Position numbers and translations under genes: made by a program. Below the pieces are notes generated by a model. It was given only the letters and a program-made list of their open reading frames with translations. It was not told the origin of the DNA and ran no database searches. Shown in pieces: positions 39,076 through 55,335 of a stretch of 64,000 bases of DNA (the stretch's first letter is position 1; each line of letters begins with the position of its first letter). The DNA is from a virus (Duplodnaviria; Caudoviricetes), in IMG/VR virus record IMGVR_UViG_3300031998_000008, positions 128,001-192,000 of that record; one strand, given 5' to 3'.

Positions 39076-39146
39076 GGTTCATTGGGCCATCGGTTGGCCA
39101 GGCGTCTCTAAAACGCTAAAGAAGGGTTCGACTCCCTTATGAGCCG
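39076..39146 (+). tRNA. Amber suppressor tRNA (anticodon CTA)
   Basis: Cloverleaf GGTTCAT/ATGAGCC; anticodon arm GGCGT-CTCTAAA-ACGCT; T loop TTCGACT. Confidence 0.85.
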
Positions 39147-39176
39147 CTACCAATAAGATTAAACAAATACTATGAA

Positions 39177-42816: not shown

Positions 42817-42952
42817 TGAAGCGTGGTGAAATGGTAGACACGGCGGTAGTAAACAAAACGCTTACAGTGTATGTAAGTTAACAGCAGTTGGTATTACGTT
42901 TCAGGTAGAACCGCTGCCAGTGGCGTTGGAGGTTCGAATCCTTCCGCTTCAA
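42817..42952 (+). tRNA. Type II tRNA interrupted by an ACAGCA mini-intron (~42848-42902); predicted anticodon GTA
   Basis: Removing 55 nt gives GCGGT-AGGTAGA-ACCGC; Leu-like D arm; identity uncertain. Confidence 0.6.
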
Positions 42953-42962
42953 CAAAAAAGTT

Positions 42963-42977
42963 TGGCACGATTTTTGA
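42963..42977 (+). promoter_or_regulatory. sigma54-type -24/-12 promoter
   Basis: TGGCACG-ATTT-TTGA, followed by boxA. Confidence 0.7.
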
Positions 42978-43004
42978 TATAGTGCTTATGTTCTTTGAAA
43001 TTAT

Positions 43005-43077
43005 CGGGATGTAGTTCAGTTGGTAGAACGCATGGTTTGGGACCACGAGGTCGCAGGTTCGAGTCCTGTCATCCCGA
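43005..43077 (+). tRNA. tRNA-Pro(TGG)
   Basis: CATGG-TTTGGGA-CCACG. Confidence 0.92.
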
Positions 43078-43191
43078 CAGAAAGATGAAGGCAACTGCAT
43101 GGACATAATCAATGCCACTATGTTGAGCACTAGAAAATATGGCAGATAAAGGTCCTTGGACAAACTCAACTACGGTTAAACTTCATCAAAT

Positions 43192-43361
43192 GGTGCTCTG
43201 GCAGATATGGTATATGCACCGGACTGAATACAGAATAAACTGTAAATTAAACTTCGTGTTGGCGAAGAGGAAAACGCAAGACGCTAATCGTCTAACTCAT
43301 CGGTTCAAATCCGATACACGGAGCAAATCCGGCTAAGGTGGTTCGAGTCCACTGGGCACCA
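43192..43361 (+). tRNA. tRNA-Phe(GAA) with a 97-nt insertion (43229-43325) containing a nested tRNA-like RNA
   Basis: CCGGA-CTGAA[insert]AA-TCCGG; acceptor GGTGCTC/GGGCACC. Confidence 0.75.
43253..43323 (+). ncRNA. Nested tRNA-like cloverleaf with 5-nt anticodon loop
   Basis: TTCGTGT/ACACGGA, AGACG-CTAAT-CGTCT, ATCGG-TTCAAAT-CCGAT. Confidence 0.7.
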
Positions 43362-43412
43362 CAGAAAATTTGATAATAAAATAGAAATTAAAATAAAAAA
43401 ATAGGTAATACG

Positions 43413-43448
43413 ATGACACGATTTAAGAAACACATAAAACGACTGTAA
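43413..43448 (+). promoter_or_regulatory. Putative leader peptide MTRFKKHIKRL* followed by a 10-bp hairpin
   Basis: A-rich initiation region; AATGATGGTA/TACCATCATT hairpin immediately after the stop. Confidence 0.45.
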
Positions 43449-43495
43449 GTAATGATGGTACACCTTGTAGTTTTACCATCATTCGGGAAGACTAT

Positions 43496-43568
43496 GGGGA
43501 TGTAGCAGACACGGTTGTTGCGTGTGACTGAAAATCACAAGAAGTTGGGTCAGCACCAACCATCCCCA
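43496..43568 (+). tRNA. tRNA-Phe(GAA)
   Basis: TGTGA-CTGAAAA-TCACA; atypical T loop GTCAGCA. Confidence 0.8.
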
Positions 43569-43574
43569 CAATAG

Positions 43575-43648
43575 GGGCTCATAGCATAATTGGTAGTTGC
43601 ACCTGACTTTTAATCAGGGGGTTCTGGGTTCGAGTCCCAGTGGGCCCA
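43575..43648 (+). tRNA. tRNA-Lys(TTT)
   Basis: CCTGA-CTTTTAA-TCAGG. Confidence 0.92.
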
Positions 43649-43657
43649 CAAGCAAAT

Positions 43658-43733
43658 GCGCTTGTAACTCAGTGGTTTTCAGAGTACTTGACTTTTAATC
43701 AAGGAGTCGTGGGTTCGAGTCCCACCAGGCGCA
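43658..43733 (+). tRNA. tRNA-Lys(TTT)
   Basis: CTTGA-CTTTTAA-TCAAG. Confidence 0.92.
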
Positions 43734-43739
43734 CTAAAT

Positions 43740-43811
43740 GCCCCAATGGTGTAATGGATAGCACTAAAGTCCACGGAACTTTCAGTGAGGGTTCGAATCC
43801 TTCTTGGGGTA
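43740..43811 (+). tRNA. tRNA-Arg(ACG)
   Basis: AAAGT-CCACGGA-ACTTT (C33). Confidence 0.85.
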
Positions 43812-43823
43812 CTTTTGACAAAC

Positions 43824-43894
43824 GTCCCTGTAGGTCAACGGTAGACTAGGTGACTCTTAATCATCGGATTTGGGTTCGAATCCCAGCGGGGGCA
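43824..43894 (+). tRNA. tRNA-Lys(CTT)
   Basis: GGTGA-CTCTTAA-TCATC. Confidence 0.88.
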
Positions 43895-43901
43895 CAAAAC
43901 T

Positions 43902-43916
43902 TGGCACGGTTTTTGA
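43902..43916 (+). promoter_or_regulatory. sigma54-type -24/-12 promoter
   Basis: TGGCACG-GTTT-TTGA, followed by boxA. Confidence 0.7.
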
Positions 43917-43944
43917 TAATGTGCAAACGTTCTTTGAAAAACAT

Positions 43945-44016
43945 GGCTCCATAGTTCAAGGGATAGAACGAGTGCCTTCTAAGCACCAAATCTAGGTTCG
44001 AGTCCTAGTGGGGCTA
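43945..44016 (+). tRNA. tRNA-Arg(TCT)
   Basis: AGTGC-CTTCTAA-GCACC. Confidence 0.9.
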
Positions 44017-44024
44017 CAAAACAT

Positions 44025-44096
44025 GCTCCTATAGTTCAAGGGAGAGAATAGAAGTTTCCTAAACTTTTGATTTAGGTTCGAGTCCTAATAGGAGTA
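44025..44096 (+). tRNA. tRNA-Arg(CCT)
   Basis: GAAGT-TTCCTAA-ACTTT. Confidence 0.9.
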
Positions 44097-44117
44097 CAAA
44101 CTTAAATTAAATAGAAT

Positions 44118-44288
44118 ATGGGACTTACATATGGCGAAGAGCCTGAACCTTGGATGAATAGCGATGCCCATAACAGGCATTGTTCACGTAAAAAAATTAA
44201 ACGTGAGAGACATAAAAAACTCAGAAGAATACCTCTTGACAAAGATGTCAGGTCAATGTTAAAAAGGTACTCAGGCTGGGAATGGTAA
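44118..44288 (+). CDS. 56-aa basic peptide (not in ORF track)
   Basis: MGLTYGEEPEPWMNSDAHNRHCSRKKIKRERHKKLRRIPLDKDVRSMLKRYSGWEW*. Confidence 0.5.
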   Translation: MGLTYGEEPEPWMNSDAHNRHCSRKKIKRERHKKLRRIPLDKDVRSMLKRYSGWEW

Positions 44289-44292
44289 ATAT

Positions 44293-44364
44293 GCGGCGTT
44301 AGTACAACGGTTAGTATATCAGCTTGCCATGCTGAAGATGTCGGTTCGATTCCGATACGCCGCT
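44293..44364 (+). tRNA. tRNA-Gly(GCC)
   Basis: TCAGC-TTGCCAT-GCTGA. Confidence 0.92.
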
Positions 44365-44486
44365 CTAAGGTAACTTTAGATTACCTGAAGGTGATATGTG
44401 GCATCCTCAAGTACAAGGGACACACCATACTTTAGATGGTTATCGCTTTCCCTAGGGCGATTTTAAAATAGCACAGTAGGGGTGTA

Positions 44487-44557
44487 GGCGATGTAGTCTA
44501 ACGGTAGAACGGGGCTCTCATAAGGCCCATACGGAAGTTCAACTCTTCCCATCGCCA
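44487..44557 (+). tRNA. tRNA-Met/Ile2(CAT)
   Basis: GGGCT-CTCATAA-GGCCC. Confidence 0.85.
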
Positions 44558-44580
44558 CAAAAAAAAATAAAAAAAAAAGA

Positions 44581-44612
44581 TTTGCTTTTTACAAATTCAA
44601 TTTGTATATTTG
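44581..44612 (+). promoter_or_regulatory. Consensus Bacteroidota sigmaA promoter (-33/-7)
   Basis: TTTG-N20-TATATTTG, followed by boxA at 44624. Confidence 0.75.
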
Positions 44613-44880
44613 CAATATCAAAAGTTCTTTGAAAGAATATATCAAGCCGCCCAGTCGGTAGTCGCAGATTACGGTTTGCGATAAAAGTGGTACTTGGAAG
44701 CTAATCCGCTCAGTCGGTAAAAGGTAAGGTGAGAGAGGTCATCTTTAAAACGTCAATTCGTAAGCCTGAAAAGTGATACTTAGCGTTTTCTCAAAAGGAC
44801 AGAGTTCTTTGACATATTGTGAAATCTGAATAAATACAACTTCTAAAGGTTGTCTGTAGTGATACACGCAACCTTCTTAC

Positions 44881-44967
44881 GGAGGCGTGGCTGAGTGGTT
44901 TAAGGCGGCGGTCTTGAAAACCGTTGGCCTCGTAAGGGGCCCGCAGGTTCGAATCCTGCCGCCTCCG
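44881..44967 (+). tRNA. tRNA-Ser(TGA)
   Basis: GCGGT-CTTGAAA-ACCGT, long variable arm. Confidence 0.93.
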
Positions 44968-45034
44968 CAAAAAAAATCTATAACGAGAATACGACATCCT
45001 GTAGTAGAGCACTTAGTATTTAAGTTATAGTAAT

Positions 45035-45162
45035 GCTGGAATCGTCTAATGGATTAGGACACGTAGCAAACAAAATGATTTCAGTCGGAAATGAAATTTA
45101 ACAGCAGAATTTAGCAATGAAATTCCAATTCCGAAATGGGGGTTCGAATCCCTCTTCCAGCT
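45035..45162 (+). tRNA. tRNA(TCC, Gly anticodon) with ACAGCA mini-intron 45064-45118
   Basis: Spliced arm CGGAA-ATTCCAA-TTCCG. Confidence 0.75.
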
Positions 45163-45164
45163 CT

Positions 45165-45290
45165 TGCAAGTTGGTGTAGTGGCAGCACACGTAGCGACTA
45201 ATTAGATTTCAGACATGGAATTAGACAGCAATATTTAAAATGCGATGAAACCATAATTCCGTGACAGAGGTTCGATTCCTCTACTTGCAA
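45165..45290 (+). tRNA. tRNA(CAT) with ACAGCA mini-intron 45192-45246
   Basis: Spliced arm ACGGAA-ACCATAA-TTCCGT. Confidence 0.75.
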
Positions 45291-45302
45291 CTATTTAAGA
45301 TT

Positions 45303-45424
45303 TGGGATGTGGTGTAACGGTAGCACACGTAGCACTTTATGATTTCAGACACGGAATTTTACAGCAATTATTTTAGCGATGAATTTGGGTTTCCGTGGTT
45401 TTGGTTCGACTCCAGACGTCCCGA
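45303..45424 (+). tRNA. tRNA-Pro(TGG) with ACAGCA mini-intron 45330-45380
   Basis: Spliced arm ACGGAA-TTTGGGT-TTCCGT; Pro-type acceptor. Confidence 0.8.
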
Positions 45425-45446
45425 CATGTTTTTCAGGTTAAGGTAA

Positions 45447-45958
45447 TGAAATCCCAAGTGGGGCCCAATATATAACAGTCCTTGCTATATGGCGTGAGGA
45501 TAAAGTTGGGAAAATATAGGTAAAAAATGCATTCTTACGCCCTAATGGTTGATATATTGTGGTATCAATGGTGTGTTTTTATGTGTGTGACTACGCAAAT
45601 CACACAGATTTCAATCTAATGAAATACCAAGTGGGTCCTGATATAGCATATTCACAAAAAATGGTTTGTGAAGAAGTCAGGAAAATAGTGGTGAAGATGA
45701 TTATTCAGTTAATCCTTAACGTTGGCATATCGTGGAGCCAACTGTTCGTCTTTGTGTGCGTGACTACGCAAGTCGCACATATTTCGTCATAATGAAACCC
45801 CAAGTGGGACCCAATATACAATAGCCTTTGCTATATGGCGTAAAGGTAAAGTTGGGGTAATATAGGTAAAAATGCTTGGTTGCGCCCTAATGGTTGATAT
45901 ATCGTGGTATCAACAGTGTGTTTTTATGTGTGTGACTCCGCAAATCACACAGGTTTCA
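45447..45958 (+). ncRNA. Three tandem ~167-nt structured RNAs (45447-45613, 45620-45786, 45793-45958)
   Basis: 173-nt period; compensatory changes in terminal and internal stems; U-run follows. Confidence 0.75.
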
Positions 45959-46045
45959 TTTTTTTTTGGTACACGTTAAAATGTTTTTTTTTATTCGCCT
46001 TTACTAATTTTTAAATTTCATTATATTTATATAAAAATATTTATA

Positions 46046-46615
46046 ATGAAAAAGAATTTTAGAACAAAAGAAGAATATATTGAGGCTGCAAAGATGGCTC
46101 ATAGTGTTGCTGAAATGTGCAGATTACTTGGTAGAAATCCATGTGGCGCTGGATATTATATTATGAAAAAGAAAATCAAAGAATATGATATAGATATAAG
46201 TCATTTTCTTGGGCAAGGATGGAATAAGGGTTTAAAGATGAACCCTAATGAGGGAAAAATTAAAAAATTAGAAGAAATATTAGTAGAAAATTCCACATAT
46301 GCTAATTGTAATTGTTTAAAAAAAAGGTTATTAAAAGAAGGTGTTAAAGAATATAGGTGTGAGTGTTGTGGGTTGACTGAGTGGAACGGTAAAGAAATTC
46401 CTTTAGAAATACATCACATAAATGGTGTTAGAAATGATAACAGGATTGAAAATCTTCAATTATTATGCCCAAATTGCCATGCTCAAACAGATAATTATTG
46501 TTCTAAAAATATGAAGAATGGCGGAGTGGTGGAATTGGTAGACACGACTGTCCCAAAAGCAGTTGCCGAGAGGCGTGTGGGTCCGACTCCCACCTCCGCT
46601 ACAGAACTTAAATAA
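46046..46615 (+). CDS. HNH endonuclease (tRNA-array associated)
   Basis: CECCG..LEIHHING..DNRIENLQLLCPNCH. Confidence 0.88.
   Translation: MKKNFRTKEEYIEAAKMAHSVAEMCRLLGRNPCGAGYYIMKKKIKEYDIDISHFLGQGWNKGLKMNPNEGKIKKLEEILVENSTYANCNCLKKRLLKEGVKEYRCECCGLTEWNGKEIPLEIHHINGVRNDNRIENLQLLCPNCHAQTDNYCSKNMKNGGVVELVDTTVPKAVAERRVGPTPTSATELK
46520..46601 (+). tRNA. tRNA-Leu(CAA), overlapped by the HNH ORF 3' end
   Basis: ACTGT-CCCAAAA-GCAGT, variable arm. Confidence 0.85.
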
Positions 46616-46633
46616 TAATTAAAAATTAACAAA

Positions 46634-47269
46634 ATGAAGAAAGTATTTATTTTATTGATGGCAATTTCTTTGATGTTTTCATTCAATTCTTGCGATTGGT
46701 TTAACAAGAACAAGGATAATGAGAAAAAAGAAATTATCGTGGAAAACGTAGTTAAAGCAGACAGAGACTACATGACAGAAAATTATGGTAATACCTACGT
46801 ATGGTATGAAACACAAATTTCTTTGAATGACTATCTTGATGAAGAATGCGATGGCTCATTCTCAGAGATTGTAGATGTGTTCCAAGTTATCACTACAACT
46901 GACAGTGTAACATTTGATACCAAAGTAATTAAGATGTACCATGTTGCTGATTCTTCATACATTGAAGAAATTGAAGGTTTCTGGGTTGAAGACATGAATA
47001 TGAACGATGAAATCATTTCAGTCACTTACAAACAAGCATTCCAACTTATTAATGAAGTAAACTTCCCAAAACCACATTCAAAGAATTGTGTTTTGAGAAA
47101 AGAAGTTGGCCCAATTGAAGCTAATCCTCAGTATATCTTTGGCAACATTGAATCACAATTGTATGTTGATGCATTGACAGGTGATGTAACTGATGAAAGC
47201 CCAAGTTTCTGTGACGAAGTTATTGAAAACGACAGCATCGAAGATGTAAACACTCAATTTGGTGAGTAG
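46634..47269 (+). CDS. Putative lipoprotein
   Basis: Signal peptide ending FNSC; C-terminal YVDALTGDV (PepSY-like). Confidence 0.6.
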   Translation: MKKVFILLMAISLMFSFNSCDWFNKNKDNEKKEIIVENVVKADRDYMTENYGNTYVWYETQISLNDYLDEECDGSFSEIVDVFQVITTTDSVTFDTKVIKMYHVADSSYIEEIEGFWVEDMNMNDEIISVTYKQAFQLINEVNFPKPHSKNCVLRKEVGPIEANPQYIFGNIESQLYVDALTGDVTDESPSFCDEVIENDSIEDVNTQFGE

Positions 47270-47300
47270 CCGTAATTAAATAAAAAAAGATATAAAAATT

Positions 47301-47369
47301 AGAAAACCTAACAGCAACTTTTAGTAATAATCAGGACTTTCATTCCCGACAATAAACTAATGGTTTTCG
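47301..47369 (+). ncRNA. Split ACAGCA element enclosing an isolated anticodon stem-loop TTC (Glu)
   Basis: GAAAACC-TAACAGCAA...TCAGGA-CTTTCAT-TCCCGA...GGTTTTC-G. Confidence 0.7.
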
Positions 47370-47387
47370 TTTTTTAGAACCCATATA

Positions 47388-47459
47388 AGTAATCCTACAG
47401 CAACATTTCAACAAAACCTTTGATTGCAATTCAAAACCATGTTAACAAACGGATTACTG
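47388..47459 (+). ncRNA. Split ACAGCA element enclosing an isolated anticodon stem-loop GCA (Cys)
   Basis: AGTAATCC-TACAGCAA...TTTGA-TTGCAAT-TCAAA...GGATTACT-G. Confidence 0.7.
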
Positions 47460-47464
47460 TAAAT

Positions 47465-47536
47465 GCCTCCTTAGTATAACGGTTATTATATCGGCTTTGT
47501 AACCCGAAGATGGCAGTCCGATTCTGCCAGGGGGCT
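47465..47536 (+). tRNA. tRNA-Thr(TGT)
   Basis: TCGGC-TTTGTAA-CCCGA. Confidence 0.85.
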
Positions 47537-47658
47537 CAAAACATTCGAGGGATTGAGGCTTGGTTTCCTATTCTGACCTTTTGACGAATTGTGTTGGAAT
47601 ACGAATAAGGAGCAAGAGGCTTGCATGCACCTGGCTTGCTGTGTAGAGTGTTTTTAAT

Positions 47659-47742
47659 GGGAGCGTAACCGGTAATTGGTAGCCGCACGGACTGTAAATC
47701 CGTTCCCTTTTGGGACTGGTGGTTCGAGTCCACCCGCTCCCA
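47659..47742 (+). tRNA. tRNA-Tyr(GTA)
   Basis: ACGGA-CTGTAAA-TCCGT. Confidence 0.9.
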
Positions 47743-47834
47743 CAACAAGCACAAGTCTTTAGGCCCCCACACACATGGCAGCATAAGACTATATAAGTGG
47801 GAATACAAGCAAGAATTCTAAAGTGTTTGTTAAT

Positions 47835-47905
47835 GCGTTGTTAGTACAACGGCAGTATATTGGCTTCCCAAGCCGAAGATGTCAGTTCGATTCTGATACA
47901 GCGCT
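47835..47905 (+). tRNA. tRNA-Gly(CCC)
   Basis: TTGGC-TTCCCAA-GCCGA. Confidence 0.9.
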
Positions 47906-47913
47906 CATGTTTT

Positions 47914-47995
47914 CGGCTTGTGGTGGAACTGGTAGACACGCATGTCTTAGGAACATGTGCCGAAAGGCGTGTGGGTTCGACTCCCACCTTGCCGA
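47914..47995 (+). tRNA. tRNA-Leu(TAG)
   Basis: CATGT-CTTAGGA-ACATG. Confidence 0.9.
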
Positions 47996-48078
47996 CTGAA
48001 AATATATCAACGAAGCTTTGACTAATGAAGCCATGGATTTTACTGTGAGAAGTCCTATTGTGGACCGTTGATTTTTTA

Positions 48079-48112
48079 GATTATACTTTTTAGTTGATTA
48101 TACTTTTTAGTT
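48079..48112 (+). repeat. 17-nt tandem duplication GATTATACTTTTTAGTT x2
   Basis: Direct inspection. Confidence 0.8.
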
Positions 48113-48121
48113 GAAAATATA

Positions 48122-48213
48122 AGGAAACTTGCAGCAAATTTAATTAGGTTCAATAAATTTAACTTCCAATTAGATTTTAGATGGTTCGAGTCCATTACAA
48201 ACAAGGTTTCCTG
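48122..48213 (+). ncRNA. Split element enclosing an anticodon arm TCC (Gly) + T arm
   Basis: AGGAAACT-TGCAGCAA...ATTTAA-CTTCCAA-TTAGAT..GATGG-TTCGAGT-CCATT...GGTTTCCT-G. Confidence 0.7.
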
Positions 48214-48218
48214 AGTTT

Positions 48219-48292
48219 GGGAGAGTAGCGTAGCTGGTTAGCGCAACGGACTGTTAATCCGTGGGTCGTGGGTTCGATTCCCACCTCTCCCG
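48219..48292 (+). tRNA. tRNA-Asn(GTT)
   Basis: ACGGA-CTGTTAA-TCCGT. Confidence 0.92.
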
Positions 48293-48297
48293 CACAA

Positions 48298-48441
48298 AGT
48301 AAGCTTGCAGCAATAATTCAGTTTATTTTCGCAGATACCGAAGAGATGTCGGTTCGATTCCGGCCCCCCATACAAATTTAACTTTCTTATCATATGGGGG
48401 TAGTTTAATGGTAGAATATTACAAACAACAAAGGCTTACTG
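48298..48441 (+). tRNA. Circularly permuted tRNA (GAT, Ile anticodon) inside a split element
   Basis: 3' half (48326-48372) precedes 5' half (48394-48417); acceptor ATGGGGG/CCCCCAT. Confidence 0.72.
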
Positions 48442-48456
48442 TCAATACAAAGCAAA

Positions 48457-48550
48457 AGAAATCTTACAGCAAATATCAACTTGATTAGTTCGATTCTAAT
48501 ATTAGCCGCCATAAACAGGCTGATTGCAAAGGTGCAGTTAATGATTTCTG
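48457..48550 (+). ncRNA. Split element enclosing a permuted tRNA body lacking an anticodon arm
   Basis: T arm + ATTAGCC-GCCA, then GGCTGAT + D-like hairpin; flanks AGAAATC-TTACAGCAA / GATTTCT-G. Confidence 0.65.
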
Positions 48551-48564
48551 AATGCTTTTTTTAT

Positions 48565-48638
48565 AGGGGTATGGTTGAATTGGTTACAAGTACCGGCCTG
48601 TCACGCCGGTGGTGCGGGTTCGAGTCCCGTTATCCCTG
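48565..48638 (+). tRNA. tRNA-Asp(GTC)
   Basis: CCGGC-CTGTCAC-GCCGG. Confidence 0.9.
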
Positions 48639-48648
48639 CAATAGATAA

Positions 48649-48779
48649 AGGAATTCAACAGCAACTTTTAATTTCGTTTGACTGTAAATCAAAAGGTTAT
48701 TGGTTCGAATCCAGTTGTTGCATTAGAGAAATCGAAGGCGACATAGCTCAATTGGTAGAGTAAGAAAAAGTGATTCCTG
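48649..48779 (+). tRNA. Circularly permuted tRNA-Tyr(GTA) inside a split element
   Basis: TTTGA-CTGTAAA-TCAAA..T arm..TGTTGC, then GGCGACA-TAGCTCAATTGGTAGAG. Confidence 0.78.
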
Positions 48780-48795
48780 TGCATCTATTTTTTAT

Positions 48796-48869
48796 GGGCC
48801 TGTGGTTGAATGGTTTACAATGCCGCCCTGTCACGGCGTGTGGTGCGGGTTCGAATCCCGTCAGGCCCG
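48796..48869 (+). tRNA. tRNA-Asp(GTC)
   Basis: CCGCC-CTGTCAC-GGCGT. Confidence 0.88.
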
Positions 48870-48880
48870 CATAGATTGAA

Positions 48881-49036
48881 AGAAATTTAACAGCAAGAGA
48901 CTTTATGGTAAACACATTTCTCTGCAAAAGAAAGATTGTTGGTTCGAGTCCAACTGTAGCATTGAAGACGGAGCCCTCATTTAGCGAGGTGCGAGTTTTT
49001 GGCTGCATAGTGAAATTGGAAAAAGAATGATTTCTG
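48881..49036 (+). tRNA. Circularly permuted tRNA-Cys(GCA) inside a split element (break in D loop)
   Basis: TGGTAAACAC-A-TTTCT-CTGCAAA-AGAAA..T arm..TGTAGC, then GGCTGCA-TAGTGAAATTGG. Confidence 0.78.
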
Positions 49037-49163
49037 TAAATCTATAACATAGGAAACAAAGGACACACGTACCTTAAACAAGTACGAAAAGTTAGTGCAA
49101 GCCGAATAAAGTCGCCAAGCGTCTCAGGTCGGTAGCATGATAGTGAAATGTAAATTTCTTAAT

Positions 49164-49236
49164 GGGGAGTTCATTTAGCGGTTTAGGATGCAGGTTCGAC
49201 AGACCTGTCACTATGGTTCGATTCCATAACACCCCA
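49164..49236 (+). tRNA. tRNA-Val(GAC), atypical loop
   Basis: CAGGT-TCGACAG-ACCTG. Confidence 0.7.
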
Positions 49237-49240
49237 CAAT

Positions 49241-49592
49241 CGGATGTTGTTGATATTCAAAGAAAAGTCCGTAAGACGAGGGTTCGACTCCCTCCGGGTC
49301 CACCATATTGGGTGCGCCATGTTGAGTACCAACCATACTAGTTATACGGTTCTTATGATTCATGGTACAATACCAAGTAATTTGAAAAACTTGGTTCGGG
49401 TTTAAAATTGGGGTTCAACTCCCTGGCATCCAACAACTTTCAAACATGGGCCCGCTTGGATTTGATTGCGAATGAATACAATGGAAGGAGATATTCGAGA
49501 AGCCAATAAATGGCAATGAAAATTATGCATATGCAGTTGCAGCCTAAGCTAGGTTAGCAAATGCAGGTTGGCAGCGAACCAAATCGCTGCAA
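49241..49592 (+). ncRNA. ssrA: Permuted two-piece tmRNA: acceptor piece ~49241-49305, coding piece 49448-~49592, tag GNENYAYAVAA*
   Basis: GGGCCCG/CGGGTCC-ACCA with G3.U70; T arm GAGGG-TTCGACT-CCCTC; P2 pairing between the pieces; ATAAAT|GGC resume site, tag 49512-49547. Confidence 0.88.
49308..49433 (+). ncRNA. tRNA-like RNA occupying the tmRNA intervening segment
   Basis: TTGGGTGC/GCATCCAA, ACCAAGT/ACTTGGT arm, GGGG-TTCAACT-CCCT. Confidence 0.5.
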
Positions 49593-49594
49593 AT

Positions 49595-49667
49595 GGCGGG
49601 TTCGTATAATAGGTTAGTACGCCACCCTCTCAAGGTGGAAATAGAGGTTCGAACCCACTACTCGCTA
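49595..49667 (+). tRNA. tRNA-Glu(CTC)
   Basis: CCACC-CTCTCAA-GGTGG. Confidence 0.85.
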
Positions 49668-49677
49668 CAAAATACAT

Positions 49678-49749
49678 CGTGCCATCGAATAATGGTTAGT
49701 TCGCTGCCCTTTCACGGCAGTAATACGGGTTCGAGTCCCGTTGGCACGA
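49678..49749 (+). tRNA. tRNA-Glu(TTC)
   Basis: CTGCC-CTTTCAC-GGCAG. Confidence 0.9.
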
Positions 49750-49823
49750 CTCTCGCCGAGTTAGTTTCTAATCCGGAGCGCTTAACGTACACACGTTAGT
49801 AAGTAGGAAACAAGGCGAGTTTT

Positions 49824-49898
49824 CGGCTAGTGGTGTAATTGGTTAGCACGTCACCCTGATAAGGTGAAAGTTTGGTGGTTCGAGTCCACCCTAGCCGA
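49824..49898 (+). tRNA. tRNA-Ile(GAT)
   Basis: TCACC-CTGATAA-GGTGA. Confidence 0.9.
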
Positions 49899-50096
49899 CA
49901 AAATATGCAAAAATTTGTGAAATAATTTATTTTTTTGTATATTTATAAAACAAGAAAGTAGTATTCCTGTCAAGGGCGAAACAATTGATGGGTTAGAGCC
50001 ATACCGTTAGAAACACGGTCATAATGTTAGGGTACAAGTCGGGTAAAACTGACACCAGTCGGAATGACAAGTTAAATTATGGTTCACTTTCTAAAT

Positions 50097-50171
50097 GGGG
50101 CGTTAGCTCAGTCTGGCTAGAGCGGTAGCTTTGCAAGCTTCAGGTCGTGGGTTCGAATCCCACACGCTCCA
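50097..50171 (+). tRNA. tRNA-Ala(TGC)
   Basis: GTAGC-TTTGCAA-GCTTC; G3.U70. Confidence 0.92.
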
Positions 50172-50537
50172 CAAAACATATTCAGGTATAGAAGACGCAA
50201 ATTCTAAGAGACTGCTCTGTGTTTTGGACGATATATGTGTACCAAACCAATGTTCAAGTTGCGTATTGAACTGAGGGCATGTATAATCGAAAAAAAGTGT
50301 CTATGGTGTAAGTGGTGAGCACACCCAATGGAGGGAGGTACGGTTCGAGTCCGTGGATTACTTCAATTTTTTTCTTATTATTTAAAAGGATGAAGTTGGT
50401 AGCGCCACAACGTAATGTAACAAGTCCCTGAAATGGTCATTTCAAACTGTGTTCCTTATCGTAGTTAAGGGAAAGTCTTTTACGGTTTCTATAATGCGAA
50501 AGCCAAAATGTATCAAAGGAAGCAAACCGTTTTATTT

Positions 50538-50664
50538 GGAGGTATAGTTTAGTGGTAGAATGACGTAAAATGAAAATAGCATTTTGGTCATTTAAAAATG
50601 TTAACAGCATATGAGTTCAATGCCTTTCCCGCCGTTGATGTAGGTTCGATTCCTGCTGCCTCCG
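50538..50664 (+). tRNA. tRNA(TTC) with ACAGCA mini-intron 50566-50621
   Basis: Spliced arm GACGGC-CTTTCCC-GCCGTT. Confidence 0.72.
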
Positions 50665-50818
50665 CTATGAGATACCAATAGGTTTACTTAATCATATGTC
50701 AGAAGTACAATGACGTTAGAGTATGGGATTGCCGGAAGCTAACGGTGTGATACATAACTTCGCACAATTGGTAACAATTCATGTTAGTTGCAAATGACAT
50801 GATGCTCATTTTTTTTAT

Positions 50819-50950
50819 TGGCCAGTAGCTCAGTTGGCAGAGCAACGGAATGAAAAGAAAACGCATTTTGGCCTAAAGATGTTAACAGCAATGAAAAATT
50901 TTCGACTGTTAATCCGTGGGCCGCAGGTTCGAGTCCTGCCTGACCAGCCA
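50819..50950 (+). tRNA. tRNA-Asn(GTT) with ACAGCA mini-intron ~50848-50903
   Basis: Spliced arm ACGGA-CTGTTAA-TCCGT, identical to the intact Asn gene at 48219; encoded CCA. Confidence 0.85.
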
Positions 50951-51060
50951 ATATGTCTTGTGTTGGTGCGTAACCATCGGGCACTAAATGTTGAAACAAA
51001 CAGGATTAAGTTCCTCGAAAGCCATTAATCAGTTCAACTCTGATGGGACATATTTTTTAT

Positions 51061-51136
51061 GCATGTATGAAGCAGATTGGATGTGCTACCAGCGTGATAA
51101 GGCTGGGCTATGTTGGTTCGAATCCAACTGCATGCG
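51061..51136 (+). ncRNA. tRNA-Ile-like gene with 8-nt anticodon loop
   Basis: CCAGC-GTGATAAG-GCTGG. Confidence 0.55.
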
Positions 51137-51177
51137 CAAATTACCTGAACACATAGGGTGATTTATCTGTACAGATT

Positions 51178-51331
51178 GGGTGTGTAGACTGAATGGGAAA
51201 ATTGGTATCAAAAGTACATTCGGATATGACTGAAATGCAGATAGGTCATATTGACGGGATGCAACTTGAGAAGATTTGAAGATGCGCCCGGTAAGCTCCG
51301 GGAGATACGGGTTCGAATCCCGTCACACTTA
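51178..51331 (+). ncRNA. Expanded tRNA-like RNA
   Basis: GGGTGTG/CACACTT, CCCGG-TAAGCT-CCGGG, ACGGG-TTCGAAT-CCCGT. Confidence 0.5.
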
Positions 51332-51336
51332 CAATA

Positions 51337-51404
51337 GGAAAACATACAGCAACTTTAATTCAGTTACAATCTTTTAAATTGTGGGACTAAAATTTCGTTT
51401 TCCG
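51337..51404 (+). ncRNA. Split ACAGCA element enclosing an isolated anticodon stem-loop TTT (Lys)
   Basis: GGAAAAC-ATACAGCAA...ACAAT-CTTTTAA-ATTGT...GTTTTCC-G. Confidence 0.72.
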
Positions 51405-53274: not shown

Positions 53275-55335
53275 TTATTCTATTGTGTTAAGTATCCGAG
53301 CAAGTTCACATGAATACATTCCCGTTGCTTCAGGAAACATATATTCGCCAAATTCTTCACAAAGTTCTTCCTCGTTTATTTCTCCATCATTATAATCGTG
53401 TATAAATTCTTCTATTTCTCCATTATCTTCATCGAAATAGTCAATCAGATAATCAACTAATCCATGGGCTATCTCATGGCCTATAGAAATCCTCGCCTGA
53501 GCCTTTATATTGAAATCATCGGTATCTATACCATTTTTAACCATTAATGCGTGTATGAGCCCCAAATTGACCCCTATTGGGATAATTTTCTCACCTATTA
53601 AGTTTCTTGAACGCTCGTAAACGGCAAGCCAATTTTTATCACCAAAATTATAATTGTAATCAAGTTCAACCGAAATACCCAATCTTCTCAAAAATTCATT
53701 CTCCAAATCATTAACACACTCATAGGCATGTTCCATGAATTTACGTTTCCAAATGTCAAATGAATTAACTGATTCGTTCAATTCTTCTTTACCTTCAAGT
53801 CTATCTGCCAAAGTTTGTATGCTGACACAATTTTTGTCTTGAAGTGTAAAGTGGCTTCTTTCTATATAGAAATAAATCGGCACTCTTTGGGCAAATTCAC
53901 TCTTTGATATTTTCAATAATGCCTTTTTGTCTGCATCAAATTGTTTGAAACCCATCATCAAAGAATCATAATCAGGATAGTATATATCAACACGGTTCAA
54001 ATAAGCGCTGACGTGAGTAAGGTTATCTCTATATGGTAGTTGTAATCCTTCTTCTGCTTGGTTTTGGTATTCATGTCTTTGAAGTGAACCAAGATTAAGT
54101 TCTTTTGGTAGCCCCAACTTAACAGGTGCTAAACCCATTCTTCTTTGCTTTTCGTAATAATATTCTTTGTCTTGGTATCTTGACTTGCTTGATTCGTTAC
54201 CAGGAATTTGTCTGTTGAATGCGGCATCGTATCTATCTCTCTTTGGAGAATAGTATTCCATTGGCTTAACATTCAATACATCGTGATTTGAATTGAGTTT
54301 ATCTGTGTTAAATTCAAGCCTTACAAATGGATGCATTCTATAATATGATGCATTGGCAAATCCCTCAAAGTCACTTCTATGTCTTGTCAATGATATGTGT
54401 GAATTACCATCCCAATATTTAGTGTTATAAAATGCCGAATACAGTTCATCAGATTCAGCAATAAGACTAAATCTGTATAAGGTTGTGAAATGATACAAAG
54501 ATTTCATGTTTGTGTGCTCGTTCAATGTACACTCTTCCAAATCATTTATGTTTCCTAAAAATTTTTCAAACCTCTTTCCATGGATGTCTTTTATGCTTCC
54601 ATAAGTGTTATTTAGGAATTCAAGCATATCTTTTAGTTTTACACAATGCTTGTCCTGCAAAGCAAAATTCCTTGCATTGGTGTAAACAAATATAGGCACG
54701 TAATTTGCAAATACGCTATCACCTATTTCTTGATATTCGGATAATAAGTTATTCCATCCATCGTAATCTTTAAGTACTTCGTTAAATTCTTTAAACAAAA
54801 TATCTATTCTGTCAATATACTTGTGTATATTTTTTAACTTTGGCCTGTATTTATCATTCTTAATTTGCAACCCTTCTTCAGCCTGATTGTGAAACTCAAT
54901 CCTGTCGCCATTTTCTTCCCTATAAAACGGGTTCTGATAATGGGCCTTTGACGTTGTGTAATGAGAAAACATATAAGCGCCATGTCTTTTTGGAGAATAA
55001 AACTCCATTGGCTTTATGTTCAAAACATCATGCTTTGAATTTAATTTTTCTATGTTAAATTGTATCCTTACATTGTTGTTTCTTTCGTTGGCAAAAGCAA
55101 ACCCCTCAAAATTGCTTTTATGCCTTGTCAATGATATGTGGCTATTGTTATCCCAATAATCCTTCAGGTAGTTTGCACCCAACAATTCATCAGTGTTAAC
55201 AATTTCACGTAAACTGTATATTGACGTGAAATGATACAAAGATTTCATGTTAGTGTGCTCATCAATTATATTCTTAACACACTCGCTTACTATCTTTTCA
55301 ATGTCTTCTATTGTGTATTCAATCAATTTTTCCAT
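53275..55335 (-). CDS. Tandem ADP-ribosyltransferase-like domains + HExxH domain
   Basis: Two copies of EHTNMKSLYHFT..SHISLTRH..QAEE; C-terminal IGHEIAH. Confidence 0.55.
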   Translation of the reverse strand: MEKLIEYTIEDIEKIVSECVKNIIDEHTNMKSLYHFTSIYSLREIVNTDELLGANYLKDYWDNNSHISLTRHKSNFEGFAFANERNNNVRIQFNIEKLNSKHDVLNIKPMEFYSPKRHGAYMFSHYTTSKAHYQNPFYREENGDRIEFHNQAEEGLQIKNDKYRPKLKNIHKYIDRIDILFKEFNEVLKDYDGWNNLLSEYQEIGDSVFANYVPIFVYTNARNFALQDKHCVKLKDMLEFLNNTYGSIKDIHGKRFEKFLGNINDLEECTLNEHTNMKSLYHFTTLYRFSLIAESDELYSAFYNTKYWDGNSHISLTRHRSDFEGFANASYYRMHPFVRLEFNTDKLNSNHDVLNVKPMEYYSPKRDRYDAAFNRQIPGNESSKSRYQDKEYYYEKQRRMGLAPVKLGLPKELNLGSLQRHEYQNQAEEGLQLPYRDNLTHVSAYLNRVDIYYPDYDSLMMGFKQFDADKKALLKISKSEFAQRVPIYFYIERSHFTLQDKNCVSIQTLADRLEGKEELNESVNSFDIWKRKFMEHAYECVNDLENEFLRRLGISVELDYNYNFGDKNWLAVYERSRNLIGEKIIPIGVNLGLIHALMVKNGIDTDDFNIKAQARISIGHEIAHGLVDYLIDYFDEDNGEIEEFIHDYNDGEINEEELCEEFGEYMFPEATGMYSCELARILNTIE

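What the first reader, a model, noticed from the sequence alone, without database searches (positions are those of the whole stretch)
42817..51404. A 14-copy 'helix + ACAGCA' RNA element links intron-containing, permuted and fragmentary tRNA genes: candidate new phage tRNA splicing/assembly system
Seen: one module occurs in two topologies. It consists of an A-rich linker, a ~7-bp helix (variable sequence, pairing kept) usually capped by G.A, then (T/A)ACAGCA(A) or TGCAGCAA, and a U-rich linker. It is intact inside six tRNAs (42848, 45064, 45192, 45330, 50566, 50848). It is opened at its apical loop and wrapped around tRNA pieces in eight cases (47301, 47388, 48122, 48298, 48457, 48649, 48881, 51337). 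The helices covary (GATTTCA/TGAAATT, GCATTTT/AAAATGT, GCTTACA/TGTAAGT, GGATTACT/AGTAATCC, GTTTTCC/GGAAAAC). Established: bacterial tRNA introns are group I/II and far longer; permuted and split tRNAs are known from archaea and algae and use bulge-helix-bulge motifs. Inference: the split form is a natural permuted intron-exon layout, so one cut-and-ligate reaction would explain all 14 loci. The catalyst could be a tiny ribozyme or a protein endonuclease plus ligase. I do not recognise this motif from any described family.
Basis: partly seen in the sequence, partly recalled or inferred. Interest (0 to 1): 0.97.

Follow-up and report, generated by a model that had tools for sequence, protein, structure and literature searches.

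The report
Handle-tagged tRNA-mimic RNAs in a phage
The repeated "short helix + ACAGCAA" element is real, but it is most likely the docking handle of a widespread, apparently undescribed family of small phage RNAs that travel with a Ro60-shaped protein, and not a new kind of tRNA intron.

Summary
Fourteen copies of a 7-bp helix, a 2-nt spacer and ACAGCA(A) lie on the + strand of the tRNA array. Two more lie outside the window. Six copies are hairpins inserted in the 5' strand of the anticodon stem of otherwise complete tRNA-shaped genes. Eight close the ends of RNAs that carry tRNA parts.

A covariance model built only from other phages ranks the six hairpin copies as its top six hits in the window.

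The splicing reading is not supported:
- Seven of the 16 copies cannot give a tRNA.
- The cut sites would lie at no fixed distance from the helix or the tRNA body, and there is no bulge-helix-bulge.
- The contig has no ligase or splicing endonuclease.
- Family-wide, 79 of 101 unselected open copies carry cargo too short for a tRNA.

Instead the element co-occurs with a DUF2828+vWA gene: 39 of 50 records against 3 of 27 controls. The model of that protein matches only Ro60 proteins over its full length.

This contig is about 41% complete and lacks that gene, and no RNA data could be obtained. The best reading (0.6) is unspliced Y-RNA-like tRNA mimics.

Earlier notes of this scan (AI notes, mostly unchecked) report the same handle in other genomes (79 notes, at least 68 genomes). 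I found no paper describing it.

The parts
42817..42952 (+). I1: class-II tRNA-shaped gene (Tyr-GUA-like, odd loop AGGUAGA) with a closed handle. Helix 42860-42866/42872-42878, motif ACAGCAG 42881-42887. Insert after position 31.
   Evidence: (R1 20.4 bits)
45035..45162 (+). I2: Gly-UCC-shaped gene with a closed handle. Helix 45077-45083/45092-45098, motif 45101-45107. Insert between positions 28/29 (CACG|TAGC...GCAAT|GAA).
   Evidence: (21.4 bits); ortholog in L112 keeps the helix, G.U to A-U
45165..45290 (+). I3: Met/Ile-CAU-shaped gene with a closed handle. Helix 45205-45211/45216-45222, loop GACA, motif GACAGCAA 45224-45231. Insert at 28/29.
   Evidence: (20.7 bits)
45303..45424 (+). I4: Pro-UGG-shaped gene with a closed handle. 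Helix 45341-45346/45353-45358, motif 45361-45367. Insert at 28/29.
   Evidence: (17.3 bits); 96% identical ortholog in L112
47302..47368 (+). O1: open handle (GAAAACC ... GGTTTTC) around a lone anticodon hairpin with loop CUUUCAU (Glu-UUC-like).
47388..47458 (+). O2: open handle (AGTAATCC ... GGATTACT) around a lone anticodon hairpin with loop UUGCAAU (Cys-GCA-like).
48122..48212 (+). O3: open handle (AGGAAAC TT GCAGCAA ... GTTTCCT) around an anticodon arm (CUUCCAA, Gly-UCC-like) plus a T arm. No acceptor.
48298..48440 (+). O4: open handle (AGTAAGC TT GCAGCAA ... GCTTACT) around a circularly permuted whole tRNA (GAU). The order is anticodon arm, T arm, acceptor closed by a 21-nt spacer, D arm. 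Break at 28/29.
   Evidence: sub-threshold YrlA hit 48328-48448, 24.8 bits
48457..48549 (+). O5: open handle (AGAAATC TT ACAGCAA ... GATTTCT G) around a T arm, a 7-bp acceptor with encoded GCCA closed by a loop, and a D-like hairpin. No anticodon arm (YrlA-like layout).
   Evidence: Dicty_Class_I_RNA 18.6 bits over the full model; 88.5% ortholog in L112
48649..48778 (+). O6: open handle (AGGAATT CA ACAGCAA ... GATTCCT) around a permuted tRNA (GUA) with a short variable loop. Break at 26/27.
   Evidence: (tRNA 31.6 bits on the 3' part)
48881..49035 (+). O7: open handle (AGAAATT TA ACAGCAA ... GATTTCT) around a permuted tRNA (GCA) with a 39-nt acceptor spacer. Break in the D loop.
   Evidence: (tRNA 28.6 bits)
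50538..50664 (+). I5: Glu-UUC-shaped gene with a closed handle. Helix 50579-50585/50595-50601, motif 50604-50610. Insert at 29/30. Position 37 is C.
   Evidence: tRNA 43.7 bits with a 67-nt insert; 20.5 bits
50819..50950 (+). I6: Asn-GUU-shaped gene with encoded CCA and a closed handle. Helix 50863-50869/50876-50882, motif 50885-50891. Insert at 31/32. The anticodon arm is identical to the intact Asn gene at 48219.
   Evidence: tRNA 49.3 bits with a 58-nt insert; 30.3 bits
51337..51403 (+). O8: open handle (GGAAAAC AT ACAGCAA ... GTTTTCC) around a lone anticodon hairpin with loop CUUUUAA (Lys-UUU-like).
   Evidence: ortholog in L248

Best explanation
The module is the conserved 'handle' of a large family of small non-coding RNAs of big phages.

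Anatomy. The handle is a 7-bp clamp helix of variable sequence, usually starting with G. It is followed by 2 nt and a single-stranded ACAGCAA, and is flanked by an A-rich and a U-rich linker. It tags variable cargo; in this phage the cargo is mostly tRNA parts.

Two layouts. In the open form the helix joins the RNA's two ends, and any acceptor stem is closed by a spacer, as in the tRNA-like Y RNA YrlA. In the closed form the RNA keeps normal tRNA ends and the handle is a hairpin side arm leaving the 5' strand of the anticodon stem. In both forms the handle is tied to the same side of the tRNA body.

Likely mechanism. The RNAs are probably not spliced. They are stable partners of a ring-shaped, Ro60-like DUF2828+vWA protein, which grips the helix and the ACAGCAA strand. 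The cargo then displays anticodon loops or tRNA elbows to tRNA-binding factors. Candidates are host anticodon nucleases, modification or repair enzymes, or an exonuclease such as PNPase.

Shown here: the module and its two topologies; membership in a family found in many phages; co-occurrence of that family with DUF2828 genes; the Ro60-like fold of that protein.

Inferred: that this incomplete phage encodes such a protein on its missing part; that the protein binds the handle; that no splicing occurs; and what the particle does.
For: 1. Family membership. A covariance model built only from other phages picks the six closed copies as its top six window hits.

2. Abundance. A blind pattern (ACAGCAA, 25-55 nt, T loop) in IMG/VR gave 143 matches. 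Of these, 85 have a perfect 7-bp partner in exactly the 2-nt register, against 13-24 at shifts of 2-11 nt. A strict detector finds 163 handles in 0.94 Mb of those loci, 2 in 1.03 Mb of control tRNA loci, and 10 (+ strand) against 0 (- strand) in this contig.

3. Partner gene. PF11443 (DUF2828) is present in 39/50 records holding the pattern, and in 24/28 of those at least 90% complete. Three of the four complete records lacking it are hits without a helix. Controls chosen by a generic tRNA word have it in 3/27 (2/12 complete). In two of those three controls a handle lies within 1 kb of the gene. The gene often lies inside or next to the handle locus.

4. Fold. The DUF2828+DUF7788/vWA protein gives a model of pLDDT 74.5. 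Its only full-length PDB matches are Ro60 proteins: Thermus phage phiLo Ro60 9kop/9l5y (E 1e-7, TM 0.52-0.56), 1yvp, 2i91, 2nvo and human Ro60.

5. Cargo. Seven of the 16 copies here cannot make a tRNA. Of 101 open handles not selected for a T loop, 79 carry under 80 nt (median 43) and only 21 hold a T-loop word.

6. Redundancy. All 12 readable cargo anticodons duplicate intact tRNAs of the contig.

7. No splice-site logic. There is no fixed ruler and no bulge-helix-bulge. The contig has no ligase or endonuclease.

8. Precedent. YrlA has the order T arm, acceptor, D arm inside a Ro60-binding stem, and M. smegmatis YrlA is cut by RNase P and receives CCA (PMC4201824). O4 and O6 give sub-threshold YrlA hits.

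9. Relatives. The nearest complete relatives by a ClpB-like protein (42-44% identity; 356-412 kb) carry DUF2828/DUF7788 genes.
Against: - No DUF2828 or TROVE gene lies in this 148-kb contig or in its syntenic relative G049. Both are fragments (41% and 29% complete), so the partner is only extrapolated.
- Binding of the protein to the handle has never been shown, here or in any paper I found.
- Deleting the module rebuilds exact 5-bp/7-nt anticodon arms. By my reading of the sequences printed, the bodies keep discriminator bases fitting their anticodons (Gly U73; Asn and Glu G73; Pro, Ile, Tyr A73), measured against the E. coli identity rules as I recall them. That is what real tRNA precursors would show.
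- RNA-ligase-like genes (PF09414) are found in 21/28 complete records of the handle set against 1/12 controls, and lie next to the DUF2828 gene in G015 and G041. Some cutting and joining around this particle is therefore conceivable. Genome size is a confounder.
- The external sequences used for the covariation count were chosen for perfect pairing.
Confidence: 0.6

Rival explanations
1. First reader's model. The module is a small intron or permuted-intron signal. An endonuclease or tiny ribozyme cuts both linkers and a ligase joins the tRNA parts. Closed copies would then yield spliced tRNAs, and open copies would yield circular intermediates that RNase P and 3' processing turn into tRNAs.
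For: - In-silico removal or rotation gives cloverleaves with canonical anticodon arms in 8 genes.
- The I6 arm equals that of the intact Asn gene.
- Discriminator bases fit the anticodons (my reading of the sequences).
- Compensatory changes keep the D stem of the I2 ortholog.
- RNA-ligase-like genes are common in handle-bearing phages.
Against: - Seven of 16 copies here, and most family members, cannot give a tRNA.
- The junctions sit at 26/27, 28/29, 29/30, 31/32 or in the D loop. Linker lengths vary (9-13 nt on the 5' side, 5-15 nt on the 3' side). No conserved junction sequence or bulge-helix-bulge is seen.
- No ligase or splicing endonuclease lies in the contig. RtcB is in only 3/28 complete handle-set genomes, and 7 of those 28 have no PF09414 hit either.
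- All cargo anticodons are redundant with intact tRNAs.
- O6 is a GUA tRNA with a short variable loop, unlike bacterial tRNA-Tyr.
- I1, I3, I5 and O4 have off-rule loops.
Confidence: 0.12
2. Repair or decoy platform. The handle RNP presents anticodon loops as bait for host anticodon nucleases. The cleaved loops, or the phage's own cleaved tRNAs, are then re-sealed by a phage RNA ligase recruited to the particle. Cutting and joining would occur, but in the anticodon loop, not at the handle.
For: - Anticodon hairpins are the commonest cargo here (O1, O2, O3, O8 and all tRNA-shaped copies).
- PF09414 ligase-like genes are enriched and lie beside the DUF2828 gene in G015 (Yersinia phage fHe-Yen9-04, g174/g176) and G041.
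- Bacterial Ro60, YrlA and RtcB share an operon. That the operon is under RtcR control is in PMC4201824; its membership is from my own knowledge of that literature.
- Jumbo phages pair TROVE proteins with RNA repair genes (PMC7824862).
Against: - No ligase lies in this contig.
- About a quarter of complete DUF2828 genomes lack PF09414 and RtcB.
- No nuclease target is known.
- Family-wide, most cargo is short and was not examined for anticodon loops.
Confidence: 0.15
3. Selfish or decaying DNA. The module is a small mobile insertion that disrupts tRNA genes and scatters fragments, with no function for the RNA.
For: - Copies are gained and lost between this phage and its relative. I1, I3, I5, I6, O1, O2 and O4 have no counterpart in L112/L248.
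- I2-I4 share the junction and the anticodon stem, as after co-conversion.
- An HNH endonuclease ORF sits in the array.
Against: - All 16 copies are on the tRNA strand, in intergenic DNA.
- The helix is kept by covariation, and ACAGCAA is near-invariant across unrelated phages.
- There is a tight link to one protein family.
- Orthologs are conserved at 87-96% identity with a pairing-preserving change.
Confidence: 0.05
4. The module is a minimal self-cleaving or self-ligating ribozyme.
For: It is a small conserved motif next to a helix and occurs in permuted forms, as twister ribozymes do.
Against: - No Rfam ribozyme family matches at gathering or relaxed thresholds.
- The conserved part is one helix plus 7 unpaired nt, with no second conserved strand or pseudoknot.
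- The same motif in Dictyostelium Class I RNAs belongs to stable, abundantly expressed RNAs (PMC7919456).
Confidence: 0.03

Closest known systems
YrlA-type Y RNAs bound by Ro60/Rsr in bacteria and mycobacteriophages (Rfam RF02553; Chen et al. 2014, PMC4201824)
   Same: - A terminal stem carries the protein site and encloses a tRNA-like body in the order T arm, closed acceptor, D arm (O4-O7).
- Several copies occur per genome.
- The partner has a Ro60 fold.
- There is a link to RNA ligase genes.
- M. smegmatis YrlA is cut by RNase P and receives CCA, which could also happen to O4-O7.
   Different: - The handle has ACAGCAA instead of the GNCGAAN0-1G Ro site.
- Scores are far below the Rfam threshold (24.8 against 69 bits).
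- Many copies add a full anticodon arm or consist of one alone.
- A closed form exists inside a normal-ended tRNA.
- The partner is DUF2828, not Pfam TROVE.
Class I RNAs of dictyostelid amoebae (Rfam RF01414; Kjellin et al. 2021, PMC7919456)
   Same: The handle and layout are the same: a short terminal stem, then (C)UU-ACAGCAA, a variable body, and a 3' stem strand followed by UG. O5 aligns over the whole model.
   Different: - The score is 18.6 bits against a threshold of 41.5.
- Class I RNAs are 42-65 nt eukaryotic RNAs with their own promoter and no tRNA parts.
- They are reported as unique to Dictyostelia, with an RRM protein as the known binder.
Thermus phage phiLo Ro60 with Yrl1/Yrl2 (PMC12135203; PDB 9KOP, 9L5Y)
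   Same: A phage-encoded Ro60 ring binds small RNAs encoded in the phage genome. It is the best structural match of the DUF2828 model.
   Different: It is a canonical TROVE protein, and its RNAs have the CGAA bulge. No ACAGCAA and no tRNA cargo are described.
Permuted and non-canonically interrupted tRNA genes of archaea and the red alga Cyanidioschyzon, processed through bulge-helix-bulge motifs (from my own knowledge; reviewed in PMC3400036, which I did not open)
   Same: The 3' half lies before the 5' half. The interruption falls outside 37/38. Leader and trailer pair. Removal restores a cloverleaf.
   Different: There is no bulge-helix-bulge and no splicing endonuclease. The same module also tags RNAs that can never be tRNAs. 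The context is bacterial and phage.

Membership tests
ACAGCAA-handle RNAs travelling with DUF2828 (no published name found) | 7-bp covarying helix, 2-nt spacer, ACAGCAA, A-rich and U-rich linkers | tested here: met
   Model R1, built from other phages, ranks the six closed copies first. The strict detector finds 10 copies on the + strand and 0 on the - strand of the contig. Consensus.
ACAGCAA-handle RNAs travelling with DUF2828 (no published name found) | A DUF2828+vWA (Ro60-fold) gene in the same genome | tested here: not met
   No PF11443 or PF05731 hit, and no homolog of the relatives' proteins, in the 148-kb contig. The contig is only about 41% complete. In other records the gene is present in 24/28 complete ones.
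YrlA / Y RNA (RF02553) | Reaches the Rfam gathering score (69 bits) | tested here: not met
   Best hits are 24.8 bits (48328-48448) and 23.1 bits (48695-48761).
YrlA / Y RNA (RF02553) | Ro60-binding stem with the GNCGAAN0-1G motif | tested here: not met
   The motif is absent from all 14 modules. Definition from PMC4201824.
YrlA / Y RNA (RF02553) | tRNA-like domain (T arm, acceptor, D arm) enclosed by the terminal stem | tested here: met
   O4, O5, O6 and O7.
Dictyostelium Class I RNA (RF01414) | Reaches the Rfam gathering score (41.5 bits) | tested here: not met
   O5 scores 18.6 bits over the full model. The other copies have no hit.
Dictyostelium Class I RNA (RF01414) | Short stem joining the 5' and 3' ends, with a conserved 11-nt motif next to the 5' strand | tested here: inconclusive
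   The stem and 7-9 of the 11 nt (UU-ACAGCAA) are shared. Size, promoter and taxon differ (PMC7919456).
Archaeal/eukaryal protein-spliced tRNA introns and permuted tRNA genes | Bulge-helix-bulge (or relaxed form) at both junctions | tested here: not met
   By inspection of the junctions and the MFE folds of the six precursors.
Archaeal/eukaryal protein-spliced tRNA introns and permuted tRNA genes | Splicing endonuclease and RNA ligase available | tested here: not met
   PF01974, PF01139, PF09414 and PF09511 are absent from the contig. Host enzymes were not testable.
Archaeal/eukaryal protein-spliced tRNA introns and permuted tRNA genes | Removal or rotation yields a canonical tRNA | tested here: met
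   Eight of eight constructs are called tRNA by ARAGORN, which is a permissive tool. Seven other copies cannot give a tRNA.
Archaeal/eukaryal protein-spliced tRNA introns and permuted tRNA genes | Spliced or circular RNA products exist | not testable with these tools
Group I/II introns and small self-cleaving ribozymes | Match to a catalytic-core model | tested here: not met
   No such Rfam hit at gathering or relaxed thresholds. The inserts are only 51-56 nt.

The most novel reading that the evidence does not exclude
The closed and permuted copies are true precursors. The Ro60-like particle holds the handle while a nuclease and a phage or host RNA ligase remove it and join the tRNA parts. This would be the first protein-dependent tRNA splicing and permuted-tRNA maturation pathway in bacteria or phages. 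The tRNA-less copies would act as regulators or competitors of the same machine.
Probability: 0.12. Interest if true: 0.95.

Novelty: new variant of a known kind. Interest (0 to 1): 0.74.

Why it matters
If the main reading holds, many large phages carry a second kind of Ro/Y-RNA particle. Earlier notes of this scan suggest giant viruses do too.

Its RNAs hide among tRNA genes and have been taken for broken, intron-bearing or permuted tRNAs. That would change how phage tRNA arrays are annotated.

It would also give the DUF2828 family a likely RNA ligand. And it would give the unexplained Class I RNAs of social amoebae relatives, and a candidate partner protein to test.

This phage is a useful case because it shows every layout side by side: a side arm in a full tRNA, permuted tRNAs, an anticodon-less body and bare anticodon hairpins.

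The display of anticodon loops points to the phage-host conflict over tRNA cleavage, which can be tested in culturable carriers such as Yersinia phage fHe-Yen9-04.

Tried and rejected
- Brute-force splicing of all junction pairs through ARAGORN.
- The look-up of sequencing runs for RNA evidence.
- The search for related loci with the ORF after the array (53275-55335). No relatives were found.
- blastn of the region against isolated phages. It returned only tRNA and HNH similarities.
- U33/R37 rule as a test for decoding fitness. Only 34/40 'intact' tRNAs of this phage have U33, so the off-rule loops of I1, I3 and O4 are not significant.
- Identity of the handle-tRNA bodies to intact isoacceptors. 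It is 54-74%, so they are not recent copies; this is uninformative.
- Sequence profile of DUF2828 against PDB sequences. TROVE proteins appear only at E 0.11, which is not significant. The fold search was needed.
- My first loose helix scanner (6 bp within 260 nt). It is swamped by chance on both strands and was replaced by register and strict tests.
- Covariation count on A4. The external rows were chosen for perfect pairing, so the 97.5% paired figure holds by construction. Only the diversity of pair types and the slid controls carry weight.
- RtcB as an obligatory companion. It is present in only 3/28 complete genomes.

Full report
CONTEXT

The window is bases 14307-78306 of a 148,072-bp IMG/VR phage contig (34.6% G+C). 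CheckV rates it about 41% complete. Window positions 39-53 kb hold a tRNA array, all on the + strand. ARAGORN genes there, including an amber-suppressor-type tRNA (CUA). Rfam finds a permuted tmRNA. The contig has 40 tRNA genes and one tmRNA in total.

- WRCAGCA occurs 13 times on the + strand between 42880 and 51351, where about 2 are expected. GACAGCA at 45224 is a fourteenth copy.
- Each motif is preceded, 2 nt (O2: 1-2 nt) upstream, by a 6-8-nt strand. Its complement lies either 3-9 nt upstream (six 'closed' copies, I1-I6) or 45-135 nt downstream (eight 'open' copies, O1-O8).
- RNAfold closes 7 of the 8 open copies with that helix and folds the cargo into anticodon, T and acceptor hairpins.
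- Two more open copies with non-tRNA cargo lie outside the window, beside the second tRNA cluster.
- The closed copies sit in the 5' strand of the anticodon stem, at positions 28/29 (I2-I4), 29/30 (I5) and 31/32 (I1, I6). Rfam's tRNA model aligns I5 and I6 around 67- and 58-nt inserts.
- Deleting the insert, or rotating O4 and O6, gives sequences that ARAGORN calls Tyr, Gly, Met, Pro, Glu, Asn, Ile and Tyr tRNAs.

THE MODULE BELONGS TO A LARGE FAMILY

Earlier notes of this scan said the same handle had been seen in many other genomes beside a Ro60-like DUF2828 protein. I treated that as a lead and tested it myself.

- In 85 of the 143 matches a perfect 7-bp partner exists in exactly the register seen here. 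At register shifts of 2-11 nt the number is 13-24.
- Both closed copies (after the D arm of tRNA-shaped genes) and open copies occur.
- The family consensus is: an A-rich linker; a 5' strand G.GUCuU followed by G; an A before the 3' strand AAGAC.C; 2 nt; ACAGCAA; then U-rich sequence.
- A covariance model built from 22 closed copies of other phages only (A5, R1) was run over the whole window without filters. It ranks I6, I2, I3, I5, I1 and I4 as hits 1-6 (30.3-17.3 bits). The next hits are mostly the 5' halves of open copies.
- A strict detector finds 163 handles in 0.94 Mb of the pattern loci and 2 in 1.03 Mb of control tRNA-bearing loci.

THE FAMILY TRAVELS WITH A RO60-SHAPED PROTEIN

- Pfam DUF2828 (PF11443) is encoded in 39 of 50 records holding a pattern hit, and in 24 of the 28 that are at least 90% complete. 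Three of the four complete records without it are the hits that lack a helix.
- Control records chosen by a generic tRNA D-arm word have it in 3 of 27 (2 of 12 complete).
- In two of those three controls a handle lies within 1 kb of the gene.
- In many records the gene lies inside or next to the handle locus.
- The proteins are about 500 aa and combine DUF2828 with a DUF7788/vWA domain.
- A sequence profile does not reach solved Ro60 proteins significantly (E 0.11).
- An AlphaFold model (pLDDT 74.5) has only Ro60 proteins as full-length PDB matches: Thermus phage phiLo Ro60, Xenopus and human Ro60, and Deinococcus Rsr (E 1e-7 to 1e-4).
- This contig has no DUF2828 or TROVE gene and no homolog of the versions in its nearest complete relatives. 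Its syntenic relative G049 lacks one too. Both are fragments. The nearest complete relatives, at 356-412 kb, have the gene.

WHY SPLICING IS THE LESS LIKELY READING

- O1, O2 and O8 hold only an anticodon hairpin. O3 lacks an acceptor. O5 has a T arm, a closed acceptor with encoded GCCA and a D-like hairpin but no anticodon arm. The two outside copies hold no tRNA part.
- Among 101 open handles from other phages that were not selected for a T loop, the median cargo is 43 nt and 79 are shorter than 80 nt.
- The would-be splice sites lie 11-13 nt before the helix here (9 nt in a closed copy of another phage, L061). They lie 11-15 nt after the 7-nt motif here (5 in L061). They fall at five different tRNA positions, with no shared junction sequence and no bulge-helix-bulge.
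- The contig encodes no RtcB, Rnl1, Rnl2-type ligase or splicing endonuclease.
- RtcB is present in only 3 of 28 complete genomes of the handle set.
- All 12 readable cargo anticodons repeat intact tRNAs of the contig.
- The layout of O4-O7 is that of YrlA, the tRNA-like Y RNA, which is not spliced. In M. smegmatis YrlA is cut by RNase P and given CCA while staying bound to Ro60 (PMC4201824).

WHAT SPEAKS FOR SPLICING OR SOME CUT-AND-JOIN CHEMISTRY

- The anticodon arms are rebuilt exactly.
- By my reading of the sequences, the discriminator bases fit the anticodons.
- The D stem of the I2 ortholog is kept by a compensatory change.
- PF09414 ligase-like genes are in 21 of 28 complete handle-set genomes against 1 of 12 controls. 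They lie beside the DUF2828 gene in G041 and in G015. G015 is the isolated Yersinia phage fHe-Yen9-04, with g174 and g176. Genome size confounds that enrichment.
- No RNA data could be obtained, so splicing is disfavoured, not refuted.

COMPARISON WITH KNOWN FAMILIES

- No Rfam family reaches its threshold on any module.
- The nearest families are YrlA (24.8 bits against 69) and the Dictyostelium Class I RNA model. The latter aligns O5 end to end: stem, UU-ACAGCAA, variable body, stem, UG (18.6 bits against 41.5).
- Class I RNAs are described as a short terminal stem plus an 11-nt motif, and are reported as unique to Dictyostelia (PMC7919456).
- The canonical Ro60 site GNCGAAN0-1G is absent from all modules.
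- A phage Ro60 with CGAA-type Y-like RNAs is published (PMC12135203).
- TROVE proteins in jumbo phages are mentioned in PMC7824862.
- I found no paper on DUF2828 with an RNA partner, or on ACAGCAA RNAs in phages.

TURNOVER

The syntenic relative (L112/L248, 66-96% identity in the shared parts) has orthologs of I2, I4, O5, O7 and O8. It has no counterpart of I1, I3, I5, I6, O1, O2 or O4. The modules therefore come and go as cassettes, as tRNA genes do.

VERDICT

The unifying idea of one module in two topologies is right. The splicing mechanism is not supported.

The best explanation (0.6) is handle-tagged, unspliced tRNA-mimic RNAs of a Ro60-like particle. What the particle does is unknown. Display of anticodon loops to tRNA-directed enzymes is my favoured guess.

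Earlier notes of this scan report the same handle in other genomes. I re-tested the main claims independently here.

Noticed in passing
window 49243-49547: A two-piece (circularly permuted) tmRNA gene sits inside the phage tRNA array. Rfam tmRNA_permuted scores 63.4 bits, and ARAGORN reads the tag GNENYAYAVAA.
   Followed up: no
window 45447-45958: Three tandem units of about 170 nt lie directly after I4. They look like structured non-coding sequence, share an AATGAAA(T/C)CCCAAGTGGG start, and have no Rfam hit at gathering threshold.
   Followed up: no
window 39076-39147: A tRNA with anticodon CUA (ARAGORN calls it 'Pyl') is probably an amber suppressor. It hints at TAG recoding in this phage.
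   Followed up: no
window 46046-46615: An HNH endonuclease ORF (Pfam HNH_3/HNH) and a lipoprotein-like ORF (46634-47269) are inserted in the tRNA array. Both are absent from the syntenic relative L112.
   Followed up: partly
window 43192-43361; 50300-50360; 51061-51137; 51283-51330: Further odd tRNA-like pieces without the handle: a tRNA-like unit nested near 43253-43324 with a 5-nt loop, and T-arm/acceptor mini-helices. Position 51061-51135 gives a weak tRNA-Sec-like hit of 21 bits.
   Followed up: no
contig positions 105011 and 105370 (window-equivalent 90705 and 91064): Two more open handles (AGAAAAC AT ACAGCAA ... GTTTTCT G and AGAAAGC GT ACAGCAA ... GCTTTCT G) carry 40-nt and about 160-nt non-tRNA cargo next to the second tRNA cluster.
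   Followed up: partly
window 45086-45092, 45215-45223, 45350-45356 with 45140-45146, 45254-45262, 45389-45395: In I2-I4 the handle contains a copy of the in-silico ligated junction (CGGAA). That copy can pair with the 3' strand of the anticodon stem, and this alternative fold is the MFE. There is one compensatory difference between the paralogs. Its meaning is unknown.
   Followed up: partly
L249 (Yersinia phage fHe-Yen9-04, LT960551.1 100148-103380) and L032: An isolated jumbo phage carries a ligase-like gene (g174) and a DUF2828 gene (g176), both annotated only as 'Phage protein'. It also has a handle RNA about 205 kb away, near 308.5 kb. It is a ready experimental system.
   Followed up: partly
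L007, L025, L085, L092, L099: A sub-type of closed handle has a 12-19-nt loop and a conserved upstream GGTG(G/A)CAGC word. It recurs in several DUF2828 phages.
   Followed up: no
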